Made by a program: the position numbers and the translations under genes. Below are positions 1,816 through 11,875 of a DNA stretch of 13,515 bases, in pieces (position 1 is the first letter of the stretch; the number at the start of each line of letters is the position of its first letter). The stretch spans positions 1 to 13,515 of the IMG/VR virus record IMGVR_UViG_3300028952_000008; one strand, given 5' to 3'. The notes under the pieces were generated by a model. That model worked only from the letters and a program-made list of their open reading frames with translations, was not told the DNA's origin and ran no database searches. This DNA is from a virus. Taxonomy: Duplodnaviria > Heunggongvirae > Uroviricota > Caudoviricetes.

Positions 1816-3273
1816 TTAGGAGCGCCAAAAAAAAACTGAAAACAATATAATAACAGGATAAATTTCAAGGCGACCAAGAATCATAGCTATGCACATTAAA
1901 TATTTTGCAATGTCATTAAGCACTCCGAATGACGATGCAGTAGCCCCAAAACCTAATCCCATATTATTAATACATGCAGCCACTGTTGCAAATGATGTAA
2001 GAAAATCATATCCCATACCATTTAACACCAGTATAAAAAACACCGTGAAGAGAGTATAAAGAAAAAAGAAACTCCATACAGACCTCATTACACGATCTGT
2101 AACTATCTTCCCTCCTACATTTACACTCAACAACGCTCTGGGATGAGAAAGCTGATTTATCTCGTGTTTGCTTTGTTTGAAAAGTATAAGAAATCGAAGT
2201 GACTTAATTCCACCACAAGTTGAACCTATACATCCCCCAAAGAAACTTGACAACAGCAAAAACACTATCGTGTGCGTGGGCCAGTTTGCATAATCTTGCG
2301 TAGCTAAACCATTATCAGTGAGCATGGAGCTGGCAAGAAAAAACGAATGAATAAAACTTCCATGCAAGTCATACATACCTATATGCCAGACCTGGAAAGA
2401 GGTAACAATGATCACCACTAAGGCTATTAACAGAAAGAAACGAAGTTCAATATCTCTGATTAAAGGTTTTATCGTTTTTCTGCTAATAACAATATACCAA
2501 AGAGTAAAGTTGAAAGCCGATAGCAGGGAAAAAGCACCAGCCACCAGCTCAACCAAATAGTTATTAAAATATCCGATACTCTCGCTATGAGTTGAGAAAC
2601 CACCAAGCGAAACTGTGGAAATCCCGTGACAAATAGCATCAAACAAAGGCATTCCTGCAAGTCTATAACAGACAATACAAGCAATACCTAATAAAGAATA
2701 AGTTATCCACAGTGTCCGTGACGTATCGGCCAGGCGGGGAGTGAGTTTGTCATCCTTAAATGGCCCCGGCATTTCTGACTGATAAAGCTTTGCACCACCA
2801 ATACCCAATAATGGCAATACTGCAACCGCCAGAACAATAACTCCTAAACCACCTATAAAATTTAACTGTGACCGATAGTACAAATATGCCCGAGGTAATG
2901 AACTAACATCATCAATTACAGTTGCTCCTGTTGTTGTTATTCCAGAAACCCCTTCAAACAGAGCATCAATGAACGTTAAATTAAGTTCTGAGTCAATCCA
3001 TAAAGGGAATGCACTAATAACAGAAAACAAAATCCAAAACATTACAATTATAATAAACCCATCACGGGTACGTAATTGAATGCCAGATTTCTTAGTTGTA
3101 TACCACGCTCCGCCACCAATGCAAAAAAATATAACGAAAGTTATAAAGAAAACGAACAGGCTTTTTTCTTTATAAAACAATGCTACAACCATTGGTGGCA
3201 ACATTGAAAGACTATAGAGCCAAACCAGGAACCCACACATATGAGTAACAACTCTTACATGAGATGTATTCAT
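1816..3273 (-). CDS. trkG: TrkG/TrkH-family potassium uptake protein (485 aa)
   Basis: ORF-track ORF 1816..3291 begins at a TTG; the first ATG at 3273 gives 485 aa starting MNTSHVRVVTHMCGFLVWLYSLSML.... Multi-pass membrane protein with repeated glycine-rich pore-like motifs (TTTGATV, LGGFSTHSESIGYF, NNMGLGFGAT). Visibly AT-rich compared with neighbouring phage genes. Confidence 0.88.
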   Translation of the reverse strand: MNTSHVRVVTHMCGFLVWLYSLSMLPPMVVALFYKEKSLFVFFITFVIFFCIGGGAWYTTKKSGIQLRTRDGFIIIVMFWILFSVISAFPLWIDSELNLTFIDALFEGVSGITTTGATVIDDVSSLPRAYLYYRSQLNFIGGLGVIVLAVAVLPLLGIGGAKLYQSEMPGPFKDDKLTPRLADTSRTLWITYSLLGIACIVCYRLAGMPLFDAICHGISTVSLGGFSTHSESIGYFNNYLVELVAGAFSLLSAFNFTLWYIVISRKTIKPLIRDIELRFFLLIALVVIIVTSFQVWHIGMYDLHGSFIHSFFLASSMLTDNGLATQDYANWPTHTIVFLLLSSFFGGCIGSTCGGIKSLRFLILFKQSKHEINQLSHPRALLSVNVGGKIVTDRVMRSVWSFFFLYTLFTVFFILVLNGMGYDFLTSFATVAACINNMGLGFGATASSFGVLNDIAKYLMCIAMILGRLEIYPVIILFSVFFWRS

Positions 3274-3410
3274 ATCTAAATATTCTTTCAATTATAACCA
3301 CCTTGCTGCAATATTATGATTATACTGTATAAAATTTAACTCCTCTTAGATCTTACTTCACTGTTCCTTATGAAACAATCATCAAAATGAATCATATTGT
3401 AGTTAAGATT

Positions 3411-3875
3411 TTACTTTAAACACTGTTCGGTTATGTATTGCTGAGCACCTTCAAGTTGGGCCTGCATCATTACCAGTCGTTCCCGGAGGGTGAAATAATC
3501 CCGTTCAGCGGTGTCTGCCAGTCTGGGGGAGACTGCATTATCCACGCTGGAGGTGGCGGTGGCTTCACGCACTGACTGACAGACTGCTTTGATGCGCAAC
3601 CGACGACGACCAGCGGCAACATCATCACGCAGAGCATCATTTTCAGCTTTCGCATCAGCTAACTCCTTCAGGTATTTTGCATCGAGTGCAGCAACATCAC
3701 GCTGGCGTATCTGCATGTCAGTAATGATTGCGGTCGCCTGGTTGAGTTTTTCCGTCACATTATCGCGTTGCGCTTTGTAGGTAATGGCATTATCACGGTA
3801 ATGATTAACAGCCCATGACAGGCAGACGATGATGCAGATAACCAGAGCATAAATAATCACGGCAACTCTGCTCAC
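3411..3875 (-). CDS. rzpR: Rz i-spanin (inner-membrane spanin subunit)
   Basis: Translation ...[38 protein letters not shown]...[14 protein letters not shown]... closely resembles lambda Rz. The ORF-track start at 3890 is a TTG; a GTG at 3873-3875 overlaps the endolysin stop (GTGA) and gives a lambda-Rz-like length of 154 aa. Confidence 0.85.
3470..3655 (-). CDS. rzoR: Rz1 o-spanin lipoprotein, embedded in the +1 frame of Rz
   Basis: [61 protein letters not shown]: lipobox LVVVGC followed by a proline-rich stretch, wholly inside the Rz gene in another frame, as in lambda Rz1. Confidence 0.85.
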
Positions 3876-4405
3876 TGCTCTATCCCCCAACAGGCTAATG
3901 CGCTCTCCTGATCACGACGAATAACCTGACCGTAACAGTTATTTGAACGAAGGCGGCAATCGCGCCCCCTGTCCTTAATCCACCAGCGAATCGCCTCGCA
4001 GGCACCTTTACGATCACCTGCATTCAGCCGCTTATAAAATGTCGACGGAAAACACTTAGCGGGGCCAATGTTATAGGGACAAAATGACGCGATACCCGCT
4101 TTTTGTGGTTCGGTCAGTGTTACTTTAATATTGCGATCCACCCATGCCAGCGCCTTATCACGCTCAATGGCATTAACCTGATCGCATTTTTCCTTCGTCA
4201 GCCTCATTCCCGGTATGACGGGCTTACCATCCACCATTGTGGCACCACGACAGATGGTCCATATACCGGAACCATCGCGGTATGCCGTTGTGTGGTTACC
4301 TTCTTTTTCATCCAGAAACTGGTCGAGAATATCAGGCGCAGGCGCACCGACGGCAATCAGTGCCAGAACGGCAGCCGACAGGCCGTATCTGATTTTTGCG
4401 TTCAT
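3872..4405 (-). CDS. SAR endolysin (T4-lysozyme-like muramidase with N-terminal signal-arrest-release domain, phage 21 R type)
   Basis: 177 aa; N-terminal Ala/Gly-rich weakly hydrophobic segment [24 protein letters not shown], then E-x8-D-x5-T catalytic spacing ([18 protein letters not shown]) as in the phage 21 SAR endolysin. Partner pinholin lies upstream. Confidence 0.85.
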
Positions 4406-4510
4406 GGATATTTATCAGGATTTATCGGTTTCTGAACCCTGGATATGTTTATCTGTCCCGGCCTGTTGAATCAGGCAAGGAATAGTTAAATACAATAGAG
4501 AGGATTATTT

Positions 4511-4783
4511 ATGGACAATAGCACCATTTCTCTACAGGAGTTGCTCGACTGCATTTCCAGGCTTCGGGATGATGTAAATGCCCTTACTGTCGCATTTTCA
4601 TATCTGGCATTCTCAATTCCCAAGGAACAAATGCAACCAACACTGGCATCGCTCCAGCTTGAATCACTCAACCCCAAATGGTCCCAGCAACAACAAAATT
4701 CTTTCAAGTGGCTGGCGGTATTACTGGAAGAAAAATATGCTGGTGAAATTACCATTTCGGCGGAGTCTTCAGTGAACCAGTAA
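4511..4783 (+). CDS. Hypothetical 90-aa protein encoded antisense to the lysis cassette
   Basis: ATG at 4511 preceded by GAGGA about 8 nt upstream; protein-like composition (MDNSTISLQELLDCISRLRDDVNALTVAFSYLAFSIPKEQMQ...). Fills an otherwise unexplained ~340-bp gap between the endolysin start and the upstream gene's stop. Overlaps the 3' end of ORF 4749..5093 convergently by about 35 nt. Confidence 0.4.
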   Translation: MDNSTISLQELLDCISRLRDDVNALTVAFSYLAFSIPKEQMQPTLASLQLESLNPKWSQQQQNSFKWLAVLLEEKYAGEITISAESSVNQ

Positions 4784-5093
4784 TTCTTCCCGGCAGTTTT
4801 CCTTTGTAGGTTATCCGCACACCCTGCGCCTCTAAAATTATGGGGCGCTTTTCCGGTGACTGCTCATCCCCTTCACATAACCCGGCAGCAACATCCAGGA
4901 AGACCTGTCTGATGCTTCTTCTGGCTGCTGCCTCATAAAACTCCAGCGCGGCACCTTCAACACGGTCCAGCGAGATGTCCAGGTCTAAAATTTCACCGTC
5001 AAAGCGTTTTTTGTCCCGTAACGCTAAAGTTACCGTAACTTTATTCTCAAAATTGCGGATCCCTTTCACAATCAGTTCATAGTTTTGAGTCAT
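4749..5093 (-). CDS. Hypothetical 114-aa protein between holin and endolysin (YdfR/DUF1327-like by position)
   Basis: ATG at 5093 lies 4 nt after the holin stop, with the holin C-terminal codons GGAGAG acting as SD (translational coupling). Soluble-looking protein MTQNYELIVKGIRNFENKVTVTLALRDKK.... The family assignment is from recalled gene order in the Qin prophage (essQ-ydfR-rrrQ), not from sequence identity. Confidence 0.6.
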   Translation of the reverse strand: MTQNYELIVKGIRNFENKVTVTLALRDKKRFDGEILDLDISLDRVEGAALEFYEAAARRSIRQVFLDVAAGLCEGDEQSPEKRPIILEAQGVRITYKGKLPGRITGSLKTPPKW

Positions 5094-5097
5094 TGAA

Positions 5098-5304
5098 TTA
5101 CTCTCCCCGTGCAGCCTTACGCTTATCTTCTTTAATCTTGAAATAAAGATTTGTCAGATACGTCAACAGGCCAAACACCAGACTACCCAGCACACCTATT
5201 GCTGCCCACTGTGAGGGCGTGACTCTATCGAGCAACTGTAAAAACCAGTAGCCAGCACTGCCTGCGGAGGTGCCATAGGCGACACCTGTTGTTAACTTAT
5301 CCAT
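5098..5304 (-). CDS. Class II holin, pinholin of the phage 21 S type
   Basis: 68 aa [68 protein letters not shown]: two TM segments plus a charged C-terminus, near-identical to the S21 pinholin as I recall it. An in-frame TAA two codons upstream rules out a longer antiholin form. Confidence 0.88.
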
Positions 5305-5364
5305 GGATTAAGGACCACCAGCCCAAGCTCAGGCACCAGAACAGGTCTAAGTAATACCCGCACG

Positions 5365-5637
5365 TTACCTCCAGATCCGTTGCTGGAAAGTGCGGGACGG
5401 ACGTGGTGGGCGTTCGGAATAAGGCAGCCTGACAGAGATTATCCAGTGCCGATAGTCGAGACTGAGAGCTTTCTTAACCTCGAACCCGCGCCTGCGGTAA
5501 GAATGAATCAGCCATTCGGCCTGTTCTTCAGTACATGGTGGGTGTTGGTACCAGTCGGTTTTAAATGCGTGTGAACGCCGCTCATGCCGGATGGCAAGGT
5601 CGGTATCAGAATTGTGAAATTTGGTTTTGTGCGCCAT
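5365..5637 (-). CDS. Hypothetical 90-aa basic protein immediately upstream of the holin
   Basis: ATG at 5637 with only a weak SD (AGAGAAAACAG-ATG); His/Arg-rich (MAHKTKFHNSDTDLAIRHERRSHAFKTDWYQHPP...). It sits 60 bp upstream of the holin and downstream of a strong terminator. No recognisable family. Confidence 0.4.
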   Translation of the reverse strand: MAHKTKFHNSDTDLAIRHERRSHAFKTDWYQHPPCTEEQAEWLIHSYRRRGFEVKKALSLDYRHWIISVRLPYSERPPRPSRTFQQRIWR

Positions 5638-5804: not shown

Positions 5805-5960
5805 TTACTCCTCAGGTTCGTAAGCTGTGAAGACAGCGACCTCCGTCTGGCCGGTTCGGATTCGTACCTCGCAGAGGTCTTTCCTCGTTACCAGTGCCGT
5901 CACTATGACGGTTAAACAGATGACGATCAGGGCGATTAACATCGCCTTTTGCTGCTTCAT
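5805..5960 (-). CDS. hok: Hok/Gef-family type I toxin (51 aa)
   Basis: Not in the ORF track (<60 aa). Hand translation: MKQQKAMLIALIVICLTVIVTALVTRKDLCEVRIRTGQTEVAVFTAYEPEE, with N-terminal TM helix and conserved C-E...R.G..EVA.F.AYE; SD AAGGAG 9 nt upstream. As I recall, near-identical to HokD/RelF and Gef. Confidence 0.9.
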   Translation of the reverse strand: MKQQKAMLIALIVICLTVIVTALVTRKDLCEVRIRTGQTEVAVFTAYEPEE

Positions 5961-6016
5961 AGCCTGCTTCTCCTTGACCTTTCGGTCCGTAAGAGGCTAA
6001 TCTCTATGTGTCGCAT
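5957..6016 (-). promoter_or_regulatory. hok leader with a translationally coupled 19-codon upstream ORF (mok-like)
   Basis: Minus-strand ATG at 6014-6016 opens MRHIEISLLRTERSRRSRL, ending in TGA that overlaps the hok ATG (ATGA). The uORF start sits in the palindrome TCTATGtgtcgCATAGA (6002-6019). Confidence 0.4.
5974..6003 (+). promoter_or_regulatory. Candidate promoter for a Sok-like antisense RNA
   Basis: Plus-strand TTGACC (5974-5979), 18-bp spacer, TAATCT (5998-6003); a transcript from about 6010 rightward would be antisense to the hok leader and uORF start region. No RNA evidence. Confidence 0.3.
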
Positions 6017-6218
6017 AGATATGGCCTCAGATTAATGTTAAGCGTCTTGCAGGACGCGTAATGTTAACTGGGGCTTTTCTCTATCTGCCTTTTGGTGTTC
6101 ATGCCTGAGACAGATAGCCTCAAGCACCCGCAGTTATTCTACTTAACTAAGATTTCCCCGCAAACCGTTTTTGTCCGGCACAGTAAATATCCAACTAAAC
6201 CAATGGCGTTCGCTGTAT

Positions 6219-6398
6219 TTACCGCCAGTATTCAATGCACATGACCGCCATGAACACCCCTAAAAAAAGGGCATTTATATGTCCAAACATTAATATCAAA
6301 ACATCAATTTTTTCCATATACCTTGCTGTGAAGATGATGGGCATACATGATGCGAACAACCAGAACGCAACAAACAAAAACTGCAATGCGTTTTTCAT
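6219..6398 (-). CDS. Hypothetical small membrane protein (59 aa) in an AT-rich island
   Basis: The ATG at 6398 (not the ORF-track start 6437) has a strong SD AGGGGGA 5 nt upstream. MKNALQFLFVAFWLFASCMPIIFTARYMEKIDVLILMFGHINALFLGVFMAVMCIEYWR has two hydrophobic segments. Surrounding sequence about 6230-6520 is markedly AT-rich. Confidence 0.5.
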   Translation of the reverse strand: MKNALQFLFVAFWLFASCMPIIFTARYMEKIDVLILMFGHINALFLGVFMAVMCIEYWR

Positions 6399-6518
6399 TA
6401 TTCCCCCTACAATCAATGTGCAATAACATTTAAACACACCTCAATTTGGCCGGACATATAAATATCTAAACCAGAAAAAATCACTTACATAGCGTTACAA
6501 ACTCTTTAGTCTAAATAT

Positions 6519-7034
6519 TCATCGTAAAACATCCTCCACGCTTATCAGTCCATTTCGTTTCAGGTAATCTATCGCCTTCTCCGGTAATTTGCAGTCCGGC
6601 TGAGCTTTTTTCAGTTGACTGACCAGTCGTTTAACCCACATTGTTAATTCGCTAACCTGATTGCCGGATGCTGGTGGATTGTCGGCTTTACCCAGAATGG
6701 CAGCGCAGCAGGCCTCTCTGAGCACCCAGTCAACAGCATCCTTCCATGCTCCTGTTTCGACTGGCGGATTCTCACGCTTTACCTGTTCATAAAAGCGCAC
6801 GGCTTTAACCAGTCCTTCTGATGTCACCGGGACTGGCGGGCCGATGAATAAGGCCTGAATTTCATAGTTCGGCCTGTCGTTACAATCCTCTTTTGTCGGT
6901 ACATATTTCCAGTCACCAGCCCACGGCTTCCCCTGAAAGTCTGTAACGTCTTTTTTCACGTAGCGATATCGCCATGCAACTGGTTTTGCCTGCCCTGCCG
7001 TTTCATGCCCTTCCTGATAATTAATCTCGCTCAT
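6519..7034 (-). CDS. Hypothetical 171-aa protein, last gene of a three-gene coupled operon
   Basis: ATG at 7034 overlaps the stop of the upstream 58-aa ORF (ATGA). Long ORF with normal composition (MSEINYQEGHETAGQAKPVAWRYRYVKKDVTDFQGKPWAGDWKYVPTKEDCNDRP...). No recognisable family. Confidence 0.7.
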   Translation of the reverse strand: MSEINYQEGHETAGQAKPVAWRYRYVKKDVTDFQGKPWAGDWKYVPTKEDCNDRPNYEIQALFIGPPVPVTSEGLVKAVRFYEQVKRENPPVETGAWKDAVDWVLREACCAAILGKADNPPASGNQVSELTMWVKRLVSQLKKAQPDCKLPEKAIDYLKRNGLISVEDVLR

Positions 7035-7207
7035 TCATCGCCCCACTCATCACAATATGCTTCGACCGGAGTTTTTCCTGCTTCATAATCATCACGCCAT
7101 GCTTCAGCATCAGCAGCACTGCCACCACGTAACTCTGCATAGTCCATTAACAGTTCATGCCATGCTTCAAAACTGACGTTGTATTTAGTTGAACCAAAAT
7201 CAGCCAT
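7031..7207 (-). CDS. Hypothetical small acidic protein (58 aa)
   Basis: Not in the ORF track. Hand translation MADFGSTKYNVSFEAWHELLMDYAELRGGSAADAEAWRDDYEAGKTPVEAYCDEWGDE; by my count 15 Asp/Glu against 4 Lys/Arg. Its start overlaps the stop of the 60-aa ORF (ATGGCTGA) and its stop overlaps the next start (ATGA). Confidence 0.55.
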   Translation of the reverse strand: MADFGSTKYNVSFEAWHELLMDYAELRGGSAADAEAWRDDYEAGKTPVEAYCDEWGDE

Positions 7208-7382
7208 TTTGCTCTTCCTCTTCGTCTTTTATTTCGTGATGTGAGTAATTGCAGTAGTTAAAGAAAATATCTTTTGCTTCGTCATGTATTTCATCAGGCG
7301 TCGCATCATCATCCACTTCGAATTCATCCTCGAAATCTCCACCGGCTATTTCCGTTTCAATAATTATTTTAAACTTTCGCAT
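7200..7382 (-). CDS. Hypothetical small, extremely acidic protein (60 aa)
   Basis: MRKFKIIIETEIAGGDFEDEFEVDDDATPDEIHDEAKDIFFNYCNYSHHEIKDEEEEQNG; by my count 21 Asp/Glu against 5 Lys/Arg. AT-rich coding sequence. Upstream SD AGGAGG is separated from the ATG by a stable hairpin. Confidence 0.6.
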   Translation of the reverse strand: MRKFKIIIETEIAGGDFEDEFEVDDDATPDEIHDEAKDIFFNYCNYSHHEIKDEEEEQNG

Positions 7383-7388
7383 TTAACT

Positions 7389-7411
7389 ACCGCCCTTTCG
7401 GGCGGCCTCCT
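7389..7411 (-). promoter_or_regulatory. SD-hairpin-start arrangement upstream of the 60-aa acidic ORF
   Basis: mRNA reads 5' CAUCAGGAGG-CCGCCC-GAAA-GGGCGG-UAGUUAA-AUG: a 6-bp GC stem with GNRA loop sits between SD and start codon (linear spacing about 23 nt, about 7 nt if folded). Confidence 0.4.
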
Positions 7412-7475
7412 GATGTTCTGAGGGTGCAGAAATCCCTCCGGTTAAGGATTAAATTTTTAACAGAGCTAAATTTAA

Positions 7476-7832
7476 TTATTCAGTTCTGGATTTTGTCGCC
7501 CTGCGTATCCGCGCTTTCGCGTTACGCTCAATCTGAATTAGCTTTTCTATATTTTTTCGCCTTTCCCGCTCCTCCTGACGCAAGAGCCTTACATCATCTG
7601 CCAGTCTGGTTTCTCTTTTCGCCACAGAGAGCATCCAGTCAAATGGCTCCACAACTGCACCGCAGATTTTACAGCGGACCTGACGCTCTTTTTCGTCAAC
7701 CCGGACAGAGGCGTGATGACAATATGGTCTTTCCGATGGCTCATAAAGAAAATTAACCTGATTACGAGGGTCATCCTCTTTTACCGGAAATAAAACGATA
7801 TTGCTTAACTCATCCTCTGGTTTTATTTCCAT
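7476..7832 (-). CDS. Hypothetical zinc-ribbon protein with a basic coiled C-terminus (118 aa)
   Basis: ATG at 7832 with strong SD GGAGAGGAG. Contains PYCHHASVRVDEKERQVRCKICG (Cys/His cluster with C-x2-C) and an Arg/Lys/Glu-rich tail LLRQEERERRKNIEKLIQIERNAKARIRRATKSRTE. Confidence 0.7.
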   Translation of the reverse strand: MEIKPEDELSNIVLFPVKEDDPRNQVNFLYEPSERPYCHHASVRVDEKERQVRCKICGAVVEPFDWMLSVAKRETRLADDVRLLRQEERERRKNIEKLIQIERNAKARIRRATKSRTE

Positions 7833-11455: not shown

Positions 11456-11875
11456 ATGGTTCATGAAGATAAAGCGCGTAAAGAGTTCGCCAGTAGGCTT
11501 GCGCTAGCCTGTGAAAACGCTGGTTATGAACAACATGGAAGGCAGGCAGAAATTGCCCGTCGAATGAAATTAACACCAAAAGCGGTTAGCAAATGGTTTA
11601 ATGGTGAAACAATTCCTCGCCGAGAGAAATTAAGGGAATTAGCAACACTCATTGGAACAACACCAACCTATCTTTTGGGAGAGGATACAGAAGAAAGTGG
11701 ACAGATACGTTTCTATCAGGAGTTAAATCCAAGACAAAAAATCATCATTGACCTTCTGGACGAGCTCCCTGACAGTGAGACAGATGAACTTTTAAAAACT
11801 CTTGAGGAGAAAAAACAGAAGTACAATGCAATTTACGAAGAGTTAGCACGAAAGAAAAAACAAAAAGCCTCTTAA
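11456..11875 (+). CDS. racR: XRE-family HTH prophage repressor
   Basis: 139 aa; HTH RQAEIARRMKLTPKAVSKWFNGETIPRREKLRELATLIG near the N-terminus; divergent from the Cro-like ydaS. The only in-frame ATG after the upstream stop is at 11456. Confidence 0.8.
   Translation: MVHEDKARKEFASRLALACENAGYEQHGRQAEIARRMKLTPKAVSKWFNGETIPRREKLRELATLIGTTPTYLLGEDTEESGQIRFYQELNPRQKIIIDLLDELPDSETDELLKTLEEKKQKYNAIYEELARKKKQKAS

What the first reader, a model, noticed from the sequence alone, without database searches (positions are those of the whole stretch)
6519..7475. Translationally coupled three-gene operon with two tiny, highly acidic proteins; candidate anti-defence or regulatory module
Three ORFs are chained by overlapping stop/start codons (ATGGCTGA, then ATGA). 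The first two are 60 and 58 aa with roughly one third acidic residues (21/60 and 15/58 Asp+Glu by my count), and the 58-aa one is too short for the ORF track. The first gene's SD is separated from its ATG by a stable GNRA-loop hairpin (7389-7411), an arrangement that can set effective SD spacing or gate translation. Very small, strongly acidic phage proteins are the typical form of DNA-mimic anti-restriction and anti-defence proteins, but that analogy is the only basis for a function; I recognise none of the three.
Basis: inference. Interest (0 to 1): 0.65.

Follow-up and report, generated by a model that had tools for sequence, protein, structure and literature searches.

The report
Three shuffled Rac-prophage accessory genes
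The three overlapping genes are real, but they are separate, independently shuffled accessory genes of a Rac-like E. coli prophage with no known function, and the hairpin in front of the first one is a reusable ribosome-binding cassette found before many unrelated prophage genes.

Summary
Three minus-strand ORFs (7200-7382, 7031-7207, 6519-7034) overlap by ATGGCTGA and ATGA. The first two are 35% and 26% Asp+Glu. An 18-nt GAAA-loop hairpin lies between AGGAGG and the first ATG.

The interpretation as a dedicated three-gene anti-defence module is not supported.
- The genes lie inside the long early operon of a Rac-like lambdoid prophage, where stop/start overlaps are the norm.
- A is a Pfam DUF7167 protein. 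Its distant relatives occur singly in early DNA-metabolism regions of unrelated phages.
- B belongs to an unnamed family. It is also found, without A or C, on IncI2 conjugative plasmids, in virulent Ackermannviridae, and in Enterobacter prophages.
- C is a mosaic of segments shared with Ead/Ea22-like and DUF551-containing proteins.
- A and B are under purifying selection (dN/dS about 0.1).
- None of the three matches a solved structure, a defence model, or a lambda nin, exo-xis, Gam or Ral protein.

The new result concerns the SD+hairpin unit. It is a portable cassette, placed 5-8 nt before the start codons of at least five unrelated gene families. It is present in about 44% of complete E. coli genomes and is unannotated. 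It resembles the split ribosome-binding sites of T4 genes 38 and 25. Protein functions remain unknown.

The parts
7200..7382 (-). Gene A: a 60-aa DUF7167-family protein, 35% Asp+Glu, with a predicted beta-beta-alpha core and an acidic tail
   Evidence: Pfam PF23768 at 46 bits against a cut-off of 24.4. phrog_1997 at E 2e-29. AlphaFold model with pLDDT 86.6. 77 representatives in the exhaustive search, including 50-60 aa proteins at 35-62% identity. dN/dS 0.118.
7031..7207 (-). Gene B: a 58-aa acidic Trp/Tyr-rich protein of an unnamed family, with conserved W37, D40, Y41, G44 and K45
   Evidence: No Pfam or NCBIfam hit. It matches the C-terminal part of phrog_519. Homologues occur in 198 phage records and 554 plasmid records. 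Alignment A4. dN/dS 0.105.
6519..7034 (-). Gene C: a 171-aa neutral mosaic protein. It has a beta domain at about residues 16-64, a conserved helix (VKAVRFYEQVKRENPPVETGAWKDAVDWV), and a swappable C-terminal part.
   Evidence: phrog_660 at E 2e-74, plus partial hits to five other PHROGs. 1615 relatives share different sub-segments, and some are fused to DUF551 or Ead/Ea22 domains. The AlphaFold model is confident only for residues about 20-64.
7200..7207 (-). A/B junction ATGGCTGA: the stop codon of A lies inside codons 2-3 of B
   Evidence: The same 8-nt overlap joins a different upstream gene (DUF1187) to B on IncI2 plasmids.
7031..7034 (-). B/C junction ATGA
7406..7411 (-). Shine-Dalgarno sequence AGGAGG, 23 nt upstream of the AUG of A. 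Its last G closes the hairpin.
   Evidence: GGAG is kept directly 5' of the hairpin in 35 of 37 unique cassette variants.
7389..7406 (-). Hairpin H3: GCCGCCC-GAAA-GGGCGGU, a GNRA tetraloop
   Evidence: dG -14.4 kcal/mol, z -3.8. One copy in the window, with none expected by chance. The only variants seen are three C-to-U changes in the 5' arm, and each keeps a G.U pair.
7383..7475 (-). The 93-nt conserved intergenic unit. In order it holds the stop codon of the upstream gene, an AT-rich inverted repeat, TAATCCTTAACCGGAGG (a first SD-like site), a weak hairpin GAGGG/CCCUC (7420-7438), then the SD and H3.
   Evidence: Found in 2394 of 5426 complete E. coli genomes, at 3397 places, up to 7 per genome, and never annotated. 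Variants are listed. No Rfam match.

Best explanation
What it is (shown). The region is a stretch of the early-right operon of a Rac-like lambdoid prophage of E. coli. It holds three separate accessory genes packed head to tail.
- A is a DUF7167-family acidic mini-protein.
- B is an acidic 58-aa protein whose family moves between lambdoid prophages, IncI2 conjugative plasmids and virulent Ackermannviridae.
- C is a mosaic protein assembled from segments shared with Ead/Ea22-like and DUF551-containing lambdoid proteins.
The overlaps are the ordinary gene packing of this operon. The genes assort independently once one looks beyond a recently spread E. coli haplotype.

How it is expressed (inferred from anatomy and precedent). 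A is translated from a split ribosome-binding site made of AGGAGG, an 18-nt GAAA-tetraloop hairpin, then 6 nt and the AUG. Folding of the hairpin brings the SD to a working distance from the AUG, as shown experimentally for T4 genes 38 and 25. B and then C are reached by ribosomes that terminate within the 8-nt and 4-nt overlaps.

The cassette (shown). The SD-hairpin unit is not specific to A. It is a portable cassette at mosaic joints, reused in front of at least five unrelated gene families.

Protein function (inferred, low confidence). A and B are most likely small early-expressed proteins that bind and modulate a basic, probably nucleic-acid-binding, host or phage protein. C is a member of the poorly understood Ead/Ea22-associated mosaic protein pool.
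For: Context.
- The window carries, in order: SieB, an HTH repressor, a YdaT-like gene, a DnaC-like gene, DUF1627, DUF977, then the three genes, sok/hokD, a holin, a lysozyme, Rz and TrkH/trkG.
- The RefSeq annotation of a 99.8% identical locus agrees.
- 9 of 12 junctions in that operon overlap.

Independence of the genes.
- B at 78% identity in Enterobacter prophages follows an Ead/Ea22 gene. It is followed by various other genes, next to xis/int or after the replication gene P.
- B at 86% identity is on 414 IncI2-type plasmids, placed between a DUF1187 gene and an SPFH gene.
- B at 50-58% identity is in Ackermannviridae and in phiKDA1.
- DUF7167 relatives occur singly in five settings:
  - next to exonuclease genes in Klebsiella Guernseyvirinae and Enterococcus Kochikohdavirus;
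  - upstream of RecT or Erf plus SSB in enterobacterial prophages;
  - in another enterobacterial prophage (L308), upstream of SSB only;
  - after an SNF2 helicase in a Herbinix contig;
  - after P in a Klebsiella lambdoid phage.
- The third gene varies within E. coli.

The cassette.
- An exact-hairpin scan returned at least 120 stretches.
- The start codon lies 5-8 nt after the hairpin for DUF7167, a 72-aa membrane protein family, the MTELTKEQ/MAELTKE family and the MQEIKENI family. It lies 10 nt after it for a family that has its own GGAG.
- Mosaic joints lie on both sides of the SD-hairpin unit.
- The T4 precedent is described in PMC3014915.

Real genes: dN/dS is about 0.1.
Against: - No experiment bears on translation or on protein function.
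- The hairpin shows no compensatory double changes, only three wobble-preserving changes. Part of the copy set was collected with an exact-match pattern, so covariation cannot be demonstrated.
- One gene family behind the cassette has its own SD after the hairpin, so the hairpin may serve another purpose such as mRNA stability.
- Within E. coli lambdoids, A and B are almost always adjacent (79 of 81 loci). A functional A-B pair is therefore not excluded.
- The 'binds a basic partner' idea rests only on net charge and genomic context.
Confidence: 0.6

Rival explanations
1. One reading: A, B and C together form a dedicated anti-defence or regulatory module whose stoichiometry is set by translational coupling.
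For: - The stop/start overlaps are tight.
- A and B are strongly acidic.
- A, B and C co-occur in most close E. coli relatives.
- 1310 complete genomes carry at least 80% of the 1.2-kb block.
Against: - The co-occurrence is limited to copies over 85% identical, so it can be explained by identity by descent.
- Every more distant homologue of A or B lacks the other two genes.
- About half of the E. coli genomes with any piece of the block lack the full block.
- C is replaced by other genes behind B.
- Overlapping junctions are the rule across the whole operon.
Confidence: 0.06
2. A and/or B act individually, or as an A-B pair, as protein inhibitors of a host defence or DNA-processing enzyme. They could be DNA mimics in the manner of Ocr, ArdA, Gam or T7 gp5.9, or direct toxin blockers like RacC.
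For: - Net charges are -16 and -11 in about 60 aa.
- B is shared by three unrelated classes of mobile element in Enterobacterales. That pattern is typical of counter-defence genes, by my own knowledge.
- DUF7167 sits beside exonuclease or recombination genes in several phage lineages. Lambda gam and T7 gene 5.9 also sit next to their phage's exonuclease gene (lambda map; T7 from my own knowledge).
- Small orphan Rac genes (racC, ydaW) block a retron toxin (bioRxiv 10.1101/2020.06.22.160242).
Against: - On IncI2 plasmids, B heads the transfer-gene operon rather than sitting in the leading region, where plasmid anti-defence genes cluster.
- The conserved residues of A look structural.
- Charge alone has little specificity.
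Confidence: 0.22
3. The hairpin is not a translational device. It may be an intercistronic mRNA-stability or processing element, or simply the conserved 'linker' homology at which lambdoid modules recombine.
For: - Mosaic joints lie on both sides of the unit.
- Some prophages carry two copies about 1.06 kb apart.
- One downstream family has its own SD after the hairpin.
- Hairpins with very stable tetraloops are common between T4 cistrons (my own knowledge).
Against: - GGAG is kept immediately 5' of the stem in nearly all variants, even where the sequence further upstream is unrelated.
- The start codon sits at a fixed 5-8 nt from the hairpin base in four unrelated families.
- The roles are not mutually exclusive.
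Confidence: 0.3
4. The hairpin is an intrinsic terminator or an N-type nut site (boxA plus boxB) that acts on transcription of the operon.
For: - The stem is G+C-rich with a GNRA loop, resembling the GNRA-like fold of boxB.
- A GCTCT-plus-A/T stretch about 60 nt upstream loosely resembles boxA of lambda nutL (from reading).
Against: - There is no U tract on either strand, and the terminator scan did not flag it.
- The boxA-like core varies among copies (GCTCT, GTTCT, GCACT).
- The unit always abuts a start codon.
- It lies far downstream of the cro-like gene, where nutR would normally be.
Confidence: 0.04

Closest known systems
Pfam DUF7167 (PF23768) / PHROG 1997
   Same: Gene A scores 46 bits against a 24.4-bit cut-off over the full 60-position model. 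It has the family's length and the FEVxDDATxEEIEE...NxCxYG(W) pattern.
   Different: Nothing is known about the family's function. The E. coli branch is unusual in having the SD-hairpin leader and a B-family gene fused to its stop codon.
Split ribosome-binding sites of T4 genes 38 and 25
   Same: In both, a strong SD lies too far from the AUG and an intervening stable hairpin restores a working distance. Here the spacing goes from 23 nt to 6 nt. In T4 it goes from 22 to 5 nt and from 27 to 11 nt (PMC3014915).
   Different: There is no sequence relationship. This one is a GAAA-tetraloop unit that is reused in front of several unrelated genes and sits at mosaic joints. The T4 cases are gene-specific. 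Function is untested here.
DNA-mimic and other small acidic phage or plasmid inhibitors (T7 Ocr, ArdA, lambda Gam, T7 gp5.9, phi29 p56, Ugi)
   Same: Small size, strong negative charge, early expression from a mobile element. For A, occasional adjacency to an exonuclease gene, as for lambda gam and T7 gene 5.9.
   Different: No sequence or fold similarity. A is a compact beta-beta-alpha domain, not an elongated helical or DNA-shaped dimer as far as a monomer model can tell. No binding partner is known.
Ead/Ea22-like (PF13935) and DUF551 (PF04448) lambdoid early proteins
   Same: Gene C shares long, nearly identical segments with proteins that carry these domains. It also has the recurrent EPVAW...APP module boundaries. 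B often follows an Ead/Ea22 gene.
   Different: C itself has no hit to either Pfam model. Its N-terminal 15 residues and C-terminal 60 residues come from other partners.
Lambda nin-region and exo-xis-region small ORFs (NinD/E/F/H, Orf60a/61/63, Ea8.5)
   Same: Same kind of position: non-essential small ORFs in lambdoid early operons.
   Different: No detectable homology by profile search. A and B are much more acidic than any of them except the 28-aa orf28.

Membership tests
Pfam DUF7167 (gene A) | Score above the curated gathering threshold over the whole model | tested here: met
   46 bits against 24.4, model positions 1-60 of 60.
Pfam DUF7167 (gene A) | Single-domain protein of about 50-60 aa with the conserved FEV-DDAT-EEIEE-N-C-YG pattern | tested here: met
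   Alignment A1 of 38 members. The model has two strands and a helix, pLDDT 86.6.
Conserved multi-gene system (A+B+C as one module) | The gene neighbourhood is kept across distant relatives of each component | tested here: not met
   Distant A relatives lack B and C. B relatives lack A and C.
Conserved multi-gene system (A+B+C as one module) | Own promoter and terminator setting the genes apart from their neighbours | tested here: not met
   No minus-strand promoter-like or terminator-like site lies between 6519 and 7475. The next terminator-like site is at 5736-5719.
DNA-mimic anti-restriction / anti-defence proteins | Very high density of surface carboxylates | tested here: met
   35% and 26% Asp+Glu, pI about 4.1. 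This holds by composition only; the surface geometry was not analysed.
DNA-mimic anti-restriction / anti-defence proteins | Homology or fold similarity to a characterised mimic or inhibitor | tested here: not met
DNA-mimic anti-restriction / anti-defence proteins | Binds and inhibits a DNA-binding defence enzyme, relieving restriction in vivo | not testable with these tools
   This needs plating, pull-down or biochemical assays.
Split SD / hairpin-bridged translation initiation region (T4 gene 38/25 type) | Linear SD-AUG spacing beyond the functional range | tested here: met
   23 nt lie between AGGAGG and the AUG.
Split SD / hairpin-bridged translation initiation region (T4 gene 38/25 type) | A stable intervening structure that reduces the spacing to about 5-11 nt | tested here: met
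   A 7-pair GAAA hairpin with dG -14.4 leaves 6 nt. The distance is 5-8 nt in four other gene families behind the same unit.
Split SD / hairpin-bridged translation initiation region (T4 gene 38/25 type) | The structure is supported by covariation | tested here: inconclusive
   Only three one-sided C-to-U changes were seen, all keeping G.U pairs. There are no double changes, and the sampling was partly conditioned on an exact match.
Split SD / hairpin-bridged translation initiation region (T4 gene 38/25 type) | Destabilising mutations lower translation and compensatory ones restore it | not testable with these tools
   This needs reporter fusions or toeprinting.
Ead/Ea22-like or DUF551 (gene C) | Match to PF13935 or PF04448 | tested here: not met
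   C has no Pfam hit at E up to 0.1. Only some relatives that share its segments carry those domains.
Intrinsic terminator (the hairpin) | A G+C-rich stem followed by a U tract | tested here: not met
   The hairpin is followed by AGUUAAAUG. It was not reported by the scan.
Known RNA families (Rfam) | A covariance-model match | tested here: not met
   Nothing at gathering scores apart from sok. Permissive settings on 7350-7500 gave only chance-level hits.

The most novel reading that the evidence does not exclude
B alone, or the A-B pair, is a new family of small acidic inhibitors aimed at a conserved enterobacterial target such as a restriction, RecBCD-type or abortive-infection component. That would explain why nearly the same 58-aa protein is kept under purifying selection in three kinds of mobile element: lambdoid prophages, IncI2 conjugative plasmids and virulent Ackermannviridae. 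Separately, the SD-GAAA-hairpin unit would be a portable translation-initiation cassette that doubles as the recombination linker for shuffling accessory genes in E. coli prophages.
Probability: 0.2. Interest if true: 0.7.

Novelty: new member of a known kind. Interest (0 to 1): 0.35.

Why it matters
For the finding as stated, the value is mostly negative. Tight overlaps plus acidity did not mark a dedicated system here, and the genes are common, already catalogued hypothetical proteins of E. coli prophages.

Two by-products could be useful.

1. B is a short, strongly conserved acidic protein shared by prophages, mcr-1-type IncI2 plasmids and virulent phages. DUF7167 recurs in phage DNA-metabolism regions across Gram-negative and Gram-positive hosts. 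Both are cheap, well-defined candidates for anti-defence or host-takeover screens.

2. An unannotated SD-hairpin cassette is present in about 44% of complete E. coli genomes and is reused before unrelated genes. It is a natural test case for split ribosome-binding sites outside T4, and for the old 'linker sequence' idea of lambdoid mosaicism.

Tried and rejected
Searches that found no named relative.
- NCBIfam and PADLOC scans of A, B and C found nothing.
- PDB sequence and profile searches found nothing meaningful.
- Foldseek against viral models gave only uncharacterised proteins.
- Profile comparison with 19 lambda small proteins, including Nin, exo-xis, Gam and Ral, was negative.

Structure work that stalled.
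- The AlphaFold model of C was too poor (pLDDT 54) to justify a fold search.
- The afdb50 library was unavailable.

Literature searches that returned nothing: DUF7167, DUF1187, four WP accessions, and the hairpin sequence.

Locus searches that failed or added little.
- The search for related loci with broad DUF7167 alignments failed for lack of a conserved stretch.
- With A3 on viral contigs it returned only close relatives.
- P0283 gave nothing.

Ideas considered and dropped.
- A leader peptide in the intergenic unit: no plausible start codon at a usable distance from the first GGAGG.
- A boxA/boxB nut site: the boxA-like core is not conserved among copies.
- An intrinsic terminator: there is no U tract.
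- The second weak hairpin (7420-7438) as a conserved structure: several copies carry disruptive changes.
- B as a leading-region plasmid gene: it heads the transfer operon instead.
Full report
**1. Observation**

The minus strand carries three ORFs: 7200-7382 (A, 60 aa), 7031-7207 (B, 58 aa) and 6519-7034 (C, 171 aa). The junctions are as described. A's TGA lies inside codons 2-3 of B (ATGGCTGA). B's TGA overlaps C's ATG (ATGA).

A has 21/60 Asp+Glu (net -16, pI 4.08). B has 15/58 (net -11, pI 4.06). C is neutral.

Upstream of A, AGGAGG (7411-7406) is followed by GCCGCCC-GAAA-GGGCGGU (7406-7389), then AGUUAA and the AUG. The hairpin alone folds at -14.4 kcal/mol, z -3.8 against shuffles. The linear SD-AUG distance is 23 nt, and 6 nt remain if the hairpin is looped out.

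**2. Context**

The window is a Rac-like lambdoid prophage of E. coli. On the minus strand the gene order is:
- a SieB gene, then an HTH repressor gene on the plus strand (11456-11875), then an HTH_17 (cro/ydaS-like) gene and a YdaT-like gene;
- a 262-aa gene and a DnaC/IstB-like loader;
- DUF1627, DUF977 (Ren-like PHROG) and a 118-aa zinc-ribbon protein;
- A, B and C;
- an unannotated 72-aa ORF, sok RNA and hokD, and a Rem-like gene;
- an S21-type holin, DUF1327, a lysozyme, Rz and a TrkH-family gene (trkG).

A 99.8% identical locus in RefSeq names the three genes 'DUF7167 family protein', 'hypothetical protein' and 'hypothetical protein'. Pieces of the 1.2-kb block occur in 2749 of 5426 complete E. 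coli genomes, and 1310 of these carry at least 80% of it.

In that annotated operon, 9 of the 12 consecutive junctions from the cro-like gene to C are stop/start overlaps. Overlap therefore does not single these genes out. No promoter-like or terminator-like site brackets them.

**3. Are the small ORFs genes?**

Yes.
- Pairwise dN/dS is 0.105 for B against its IncI2 plasmid copy and 0.118 for A against a Shigella copy.
- The exhaustive HMMER search with A found 77 representatives, including many 50-60 aa proteins at 35-62% identity with a shared pattern.
- B has full-length relatives at 50-58% identity in virulent phages.

**4. Gene A**

A is a member of Pfam DUF7167, at 46 bits against a 24.4-bit cut-off. 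With a 38-sequence alignment, AlphaFold gives a confident model (pLDDT 86.6) of two strands and a helix, followed by a less ordered acidic tail.

Distant relatives are always single genes. None has a B or C gene beside it, and none has the hairpin. They occur in five settings:
- directly upstream of a 454-aa PD-(D/E)XK exonuclease, a gp2.5-like SSB and a DNA polymerase in Klebsiella Guernseyvirinae;
- directly downstream of an 'exonuclease' in Enterococcus Kochikohdavirus;
- upstream of RecT or Erf plus SSB in the pL-type operon of enterobacterial prophages, and in one further prophage (L308) upstream of SSB only;
- after an SNF2 helicase in a Herbinix contig;
- after the replication gene P in a Klebsiella lambdoid phage.

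The common theme is the early DNA replication and recombination region. The link to nucleases is suggestive only.

**5. Gene B**

B has no Pfam or NCBIfam family. It matches the C-terminal part of phrog_519. Its distribution is the most striking protein-level result.
- 198 phage records carry it, mostly virulent Ackermannviridae (Kuttervirus, Taipeivirus). There it lies in a run of small ORFs after the major capsid gene. The autographivirus phiKDA1 also has it.
- 554 plasmid records carry it, 414 of them at 80-90% identity and 516 typed as conjugative. The examined example is an IncI2 mcr-1 plasmid.
- On IncI2 it lies in the order CaiF/GrlA-type regulator, DUF1187, B, SPFH, NfeD, at the head of the transfer-gene strand. 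It is joined to DUF1187 by the same 8-nt ATGGCTGA overlap.
- It is not near the relaxase gene or the presumed leading region.
- In Enterobacter prophages a 78% identical B follows an Ead/Ea22 gene. It precedes different genes (89 aa, 195 aa, or a DUF551 protein), either beside xis/int or after P.

The residues W37, D40, Y41, G44 and K45 are invariant in a nine-member alignment.

**6. Gene C**

C is a mosaic. Among its 1615 relatives, different proteins share different parts of C: residues 1-115 (119-aa proteins), 15-115 (148- and 170-aa proteins) or 60-171 (187-aa proteins). Some carry DUF551 or Ead/Ea22 domains.

C itself hits neither Pfam model. Its AlphaFold model is confident only for a small beta domain at about residues 20-64, so I did not run a fold search on it.

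**7. Is it a module?**

Within E. coli lambdoids, A and B are nearly always adjacent (79 of 81 loci). The third gene varies. It can be C171, a 119-aa version, or a 239-aa Ead-like protein that starts with the same MSE(I/V)(N/D)YQ.

Single loci also show other states:
- an in-frame deletion that removes A but keeps B;
- a nonsense codon in A in Shigella;
- an IS66 insertion that truncates A.

All A-B co-occurrence is among copies over 85% identical. It cannot be told apart from simple descent, especially as the 8-nt overlap leaves no room for a recombination joint. Beyond that haplotype the families never meet. A three-gene system is therefore not supported. An A-B functional pair remains possible but unlikely.

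**8. The hairpin: the unexpected part**

Scanning viral contigs for the exact 18-mer returned at least 120 stretches. The same SD+hairpin unit precedes several gene families:
- DUF7167 (188 copies, start codon 6 nt after the stem);
- a 72-aa membrane protein family, MTTLFRKEYP/MKHYLEKNYP (about 60 copies, 5 nt);
- the MTELTKEQ/MAELTKE family of C-like mosaic proteins (7-8 nt);
- the MQEIKENI family (8 nt);
- an M(E/G)ITKERL family that has its own GGAG (10 nt).

The full 93-nt intergenic unit occurs at 3397 places in 2394 of 5426 complete E. coli genomes. It reaches up to 7 copies per genome and is never annotated. In the phage collection it occurs in Escherichia lambdoids, plus one record labelled Actinobacillus phage whose sequence is E. 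coli-lambdoid. It has no Rfam match and no literature hit by sequence.

Three forms exist:
- the full unit;
- a short form, where only (T)GTCAGGAG plus the hairpin follows an unrelated upstream gene;
- a form without the hairpin, where the first GGAGG of the unit serves directly as the SD of a 70-aa gene.

Mosaic joints thus lie on both sides of the SD-hairpin core. Some prophages carry two copies about 1.06 kb apart, in front of different genes.

Variation in the hairpin is limited to three C-to-U changes in the 5' arm, each keeping a G.U pair. The 3' arm never changes. This fits an RNA structure on the sense strand, but three events are too few to prove it. Part of the sample was also collected by exact match. 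The second, weaker hairpin (7420-7438) carries disruptive changes and is probably not selected.

**9. Mechanism**

The arrangement matches the split ribosome-binding sites of T4 genes 38 and 25. There, an intervening hairpin reduces a 22- or 27-nt SD-AUG gap to 5 or 11 nt, and destabilising mutations lower translation (PMC3014915).

Here the gap falls from 23 nt to 6 nt. In four unrelated gene families the start codon is set 5-8 nt from the hairpin base rather than from the SD. That is the strongest argument available here that the folded hairpin is part of the initiation region.

B and C would then be translated by termination-reinitiation at the overlaps. This is inferred. Alternative or additional roles for the hairpin, such as mRNA stability or recombination linker, remain open. 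Terminator and nut-site readings are unlikely.

**10. Protein function**

Function is unknown. The anti-defence idea gains only circumstantial support:
- the extreme charge;
- the spread of B across three classes of mobile element;
- the placement of DUF7167 among recombination and nuclease genes, where lambda gam and T7 gene 5.9 (my own knowledge) also sit;
- the precedent that small orphan Rac genes (racC, ydaW) block a retron toxin (bioRxiv 10.1101/2020.06.22.160242).

Against it:
- no similarity to any characterised inhibitor;
- B's position in the IncI2 transfer operon rather than the leading region;
- the conserved residues of A look structural.

I put about 0.2 on A and/or B being counter-defence or host-takeover inhibitors.

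**11. Verdict**

These are ordinary, widespread, uncharacterised lambdoid accessory genes, one of them already filed as DUF7167. The portable SD-hairpin cassette is a modestly interesting by-product that appears to be undescribed.

Noticed in passing
window 7383-7475 (-); loci L184-L303: The SD plus GAAA-hairpin unit upstream of gene A is a portable intergenic cassette. It lies 5-10 nt before the start codons of at least five unrelated gene families in E. coli lambdoid prophages. It occurs at 3397 places in 2394 of 5426 complete genomes, is unannotated, and has no Rfam match.
   Followed up: yes
window 5805-6129 (-): A complete hok/sok type I toxin-antitoxin locus. The sok RNA scores 106.7 bits in Rfam at 5958-6129, and the 51-aa HokD ORF lies at 5805-5960. 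It is followed by a UUCG-loop terminator-like hairpin at 5736-5719.
   Followed up: partly
window 6219-6437 (-): A 72-aa ORF (or 59 aa from the internal ATG) with hydrophobic stretches, between gene C and sok. It has no Pfam or PHROG hit and is not annotated in the 99.8% identical RefSeq locus.
   Followed up: no
window 1816-5637 (-): No Q antiterminator or nin genes lie between the Rem-like gene and the holin. The lysis genes run straight into a TrkH-family gene (trkG), which looks like a decayed Rac-type prophage. A related intact locus has DUF968, RusA, Q and tRNA genes at this point.
   Followed up: partly
window 7476-7832 (-): A 118-aa protein with a zinc-ribbon-like CxxC pair and a basic coiled-coil tail (phrog_1621, weak Zn_Ribbon_TF hit). 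It usually precedes the cassette, and one prophage contig (L269) carries it twice.
   Followed up: no
L183 1090-2454; L305 (IncI2 plasmid NZ_KX013538.1): On mcr-1 IncI2 plasmids, the B homologue sits in the order CaiF/GrlA-type regulator, DUF1187, B, SPFH, NfeD, at the head of the T4SS/pilus transfer strand. It uses the same 8-nt overlap with its upstream gene.
   Followed up: partly
L205; L096 3501-3680; L090-L094 4001-4141: Decay variants of gene A. One is an in-frame deletion fusing the first codons of A to B (MRKFRKNKMADFG...). One is a nonsense codon in a Shigella flexneri copy. One is an IS66 insertion that truncates A to 46 aa, read on 24 contigs and indexed in 116 blocks of the collection.
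   Followed up: partly
L310 3001-3174 and 3775-3975: One enterobacterial prophage contig carries a DUF7167 gene and, about 600 nt downstream, a 66-aa ORF with a similar pattern (KFKVWLDSGA...IDIEEDL...WGFEEITDE). This may be a divergent paralogue.
   Followed up: no
phage record PP818812.1 (hits H6, H121, H222): A record labelled 'Actinobacillus phage vB_Apl-pPE4' carries this E. coli lambdoid block at 90-93% identity. The host assignment looks odd.
   Followed up: no
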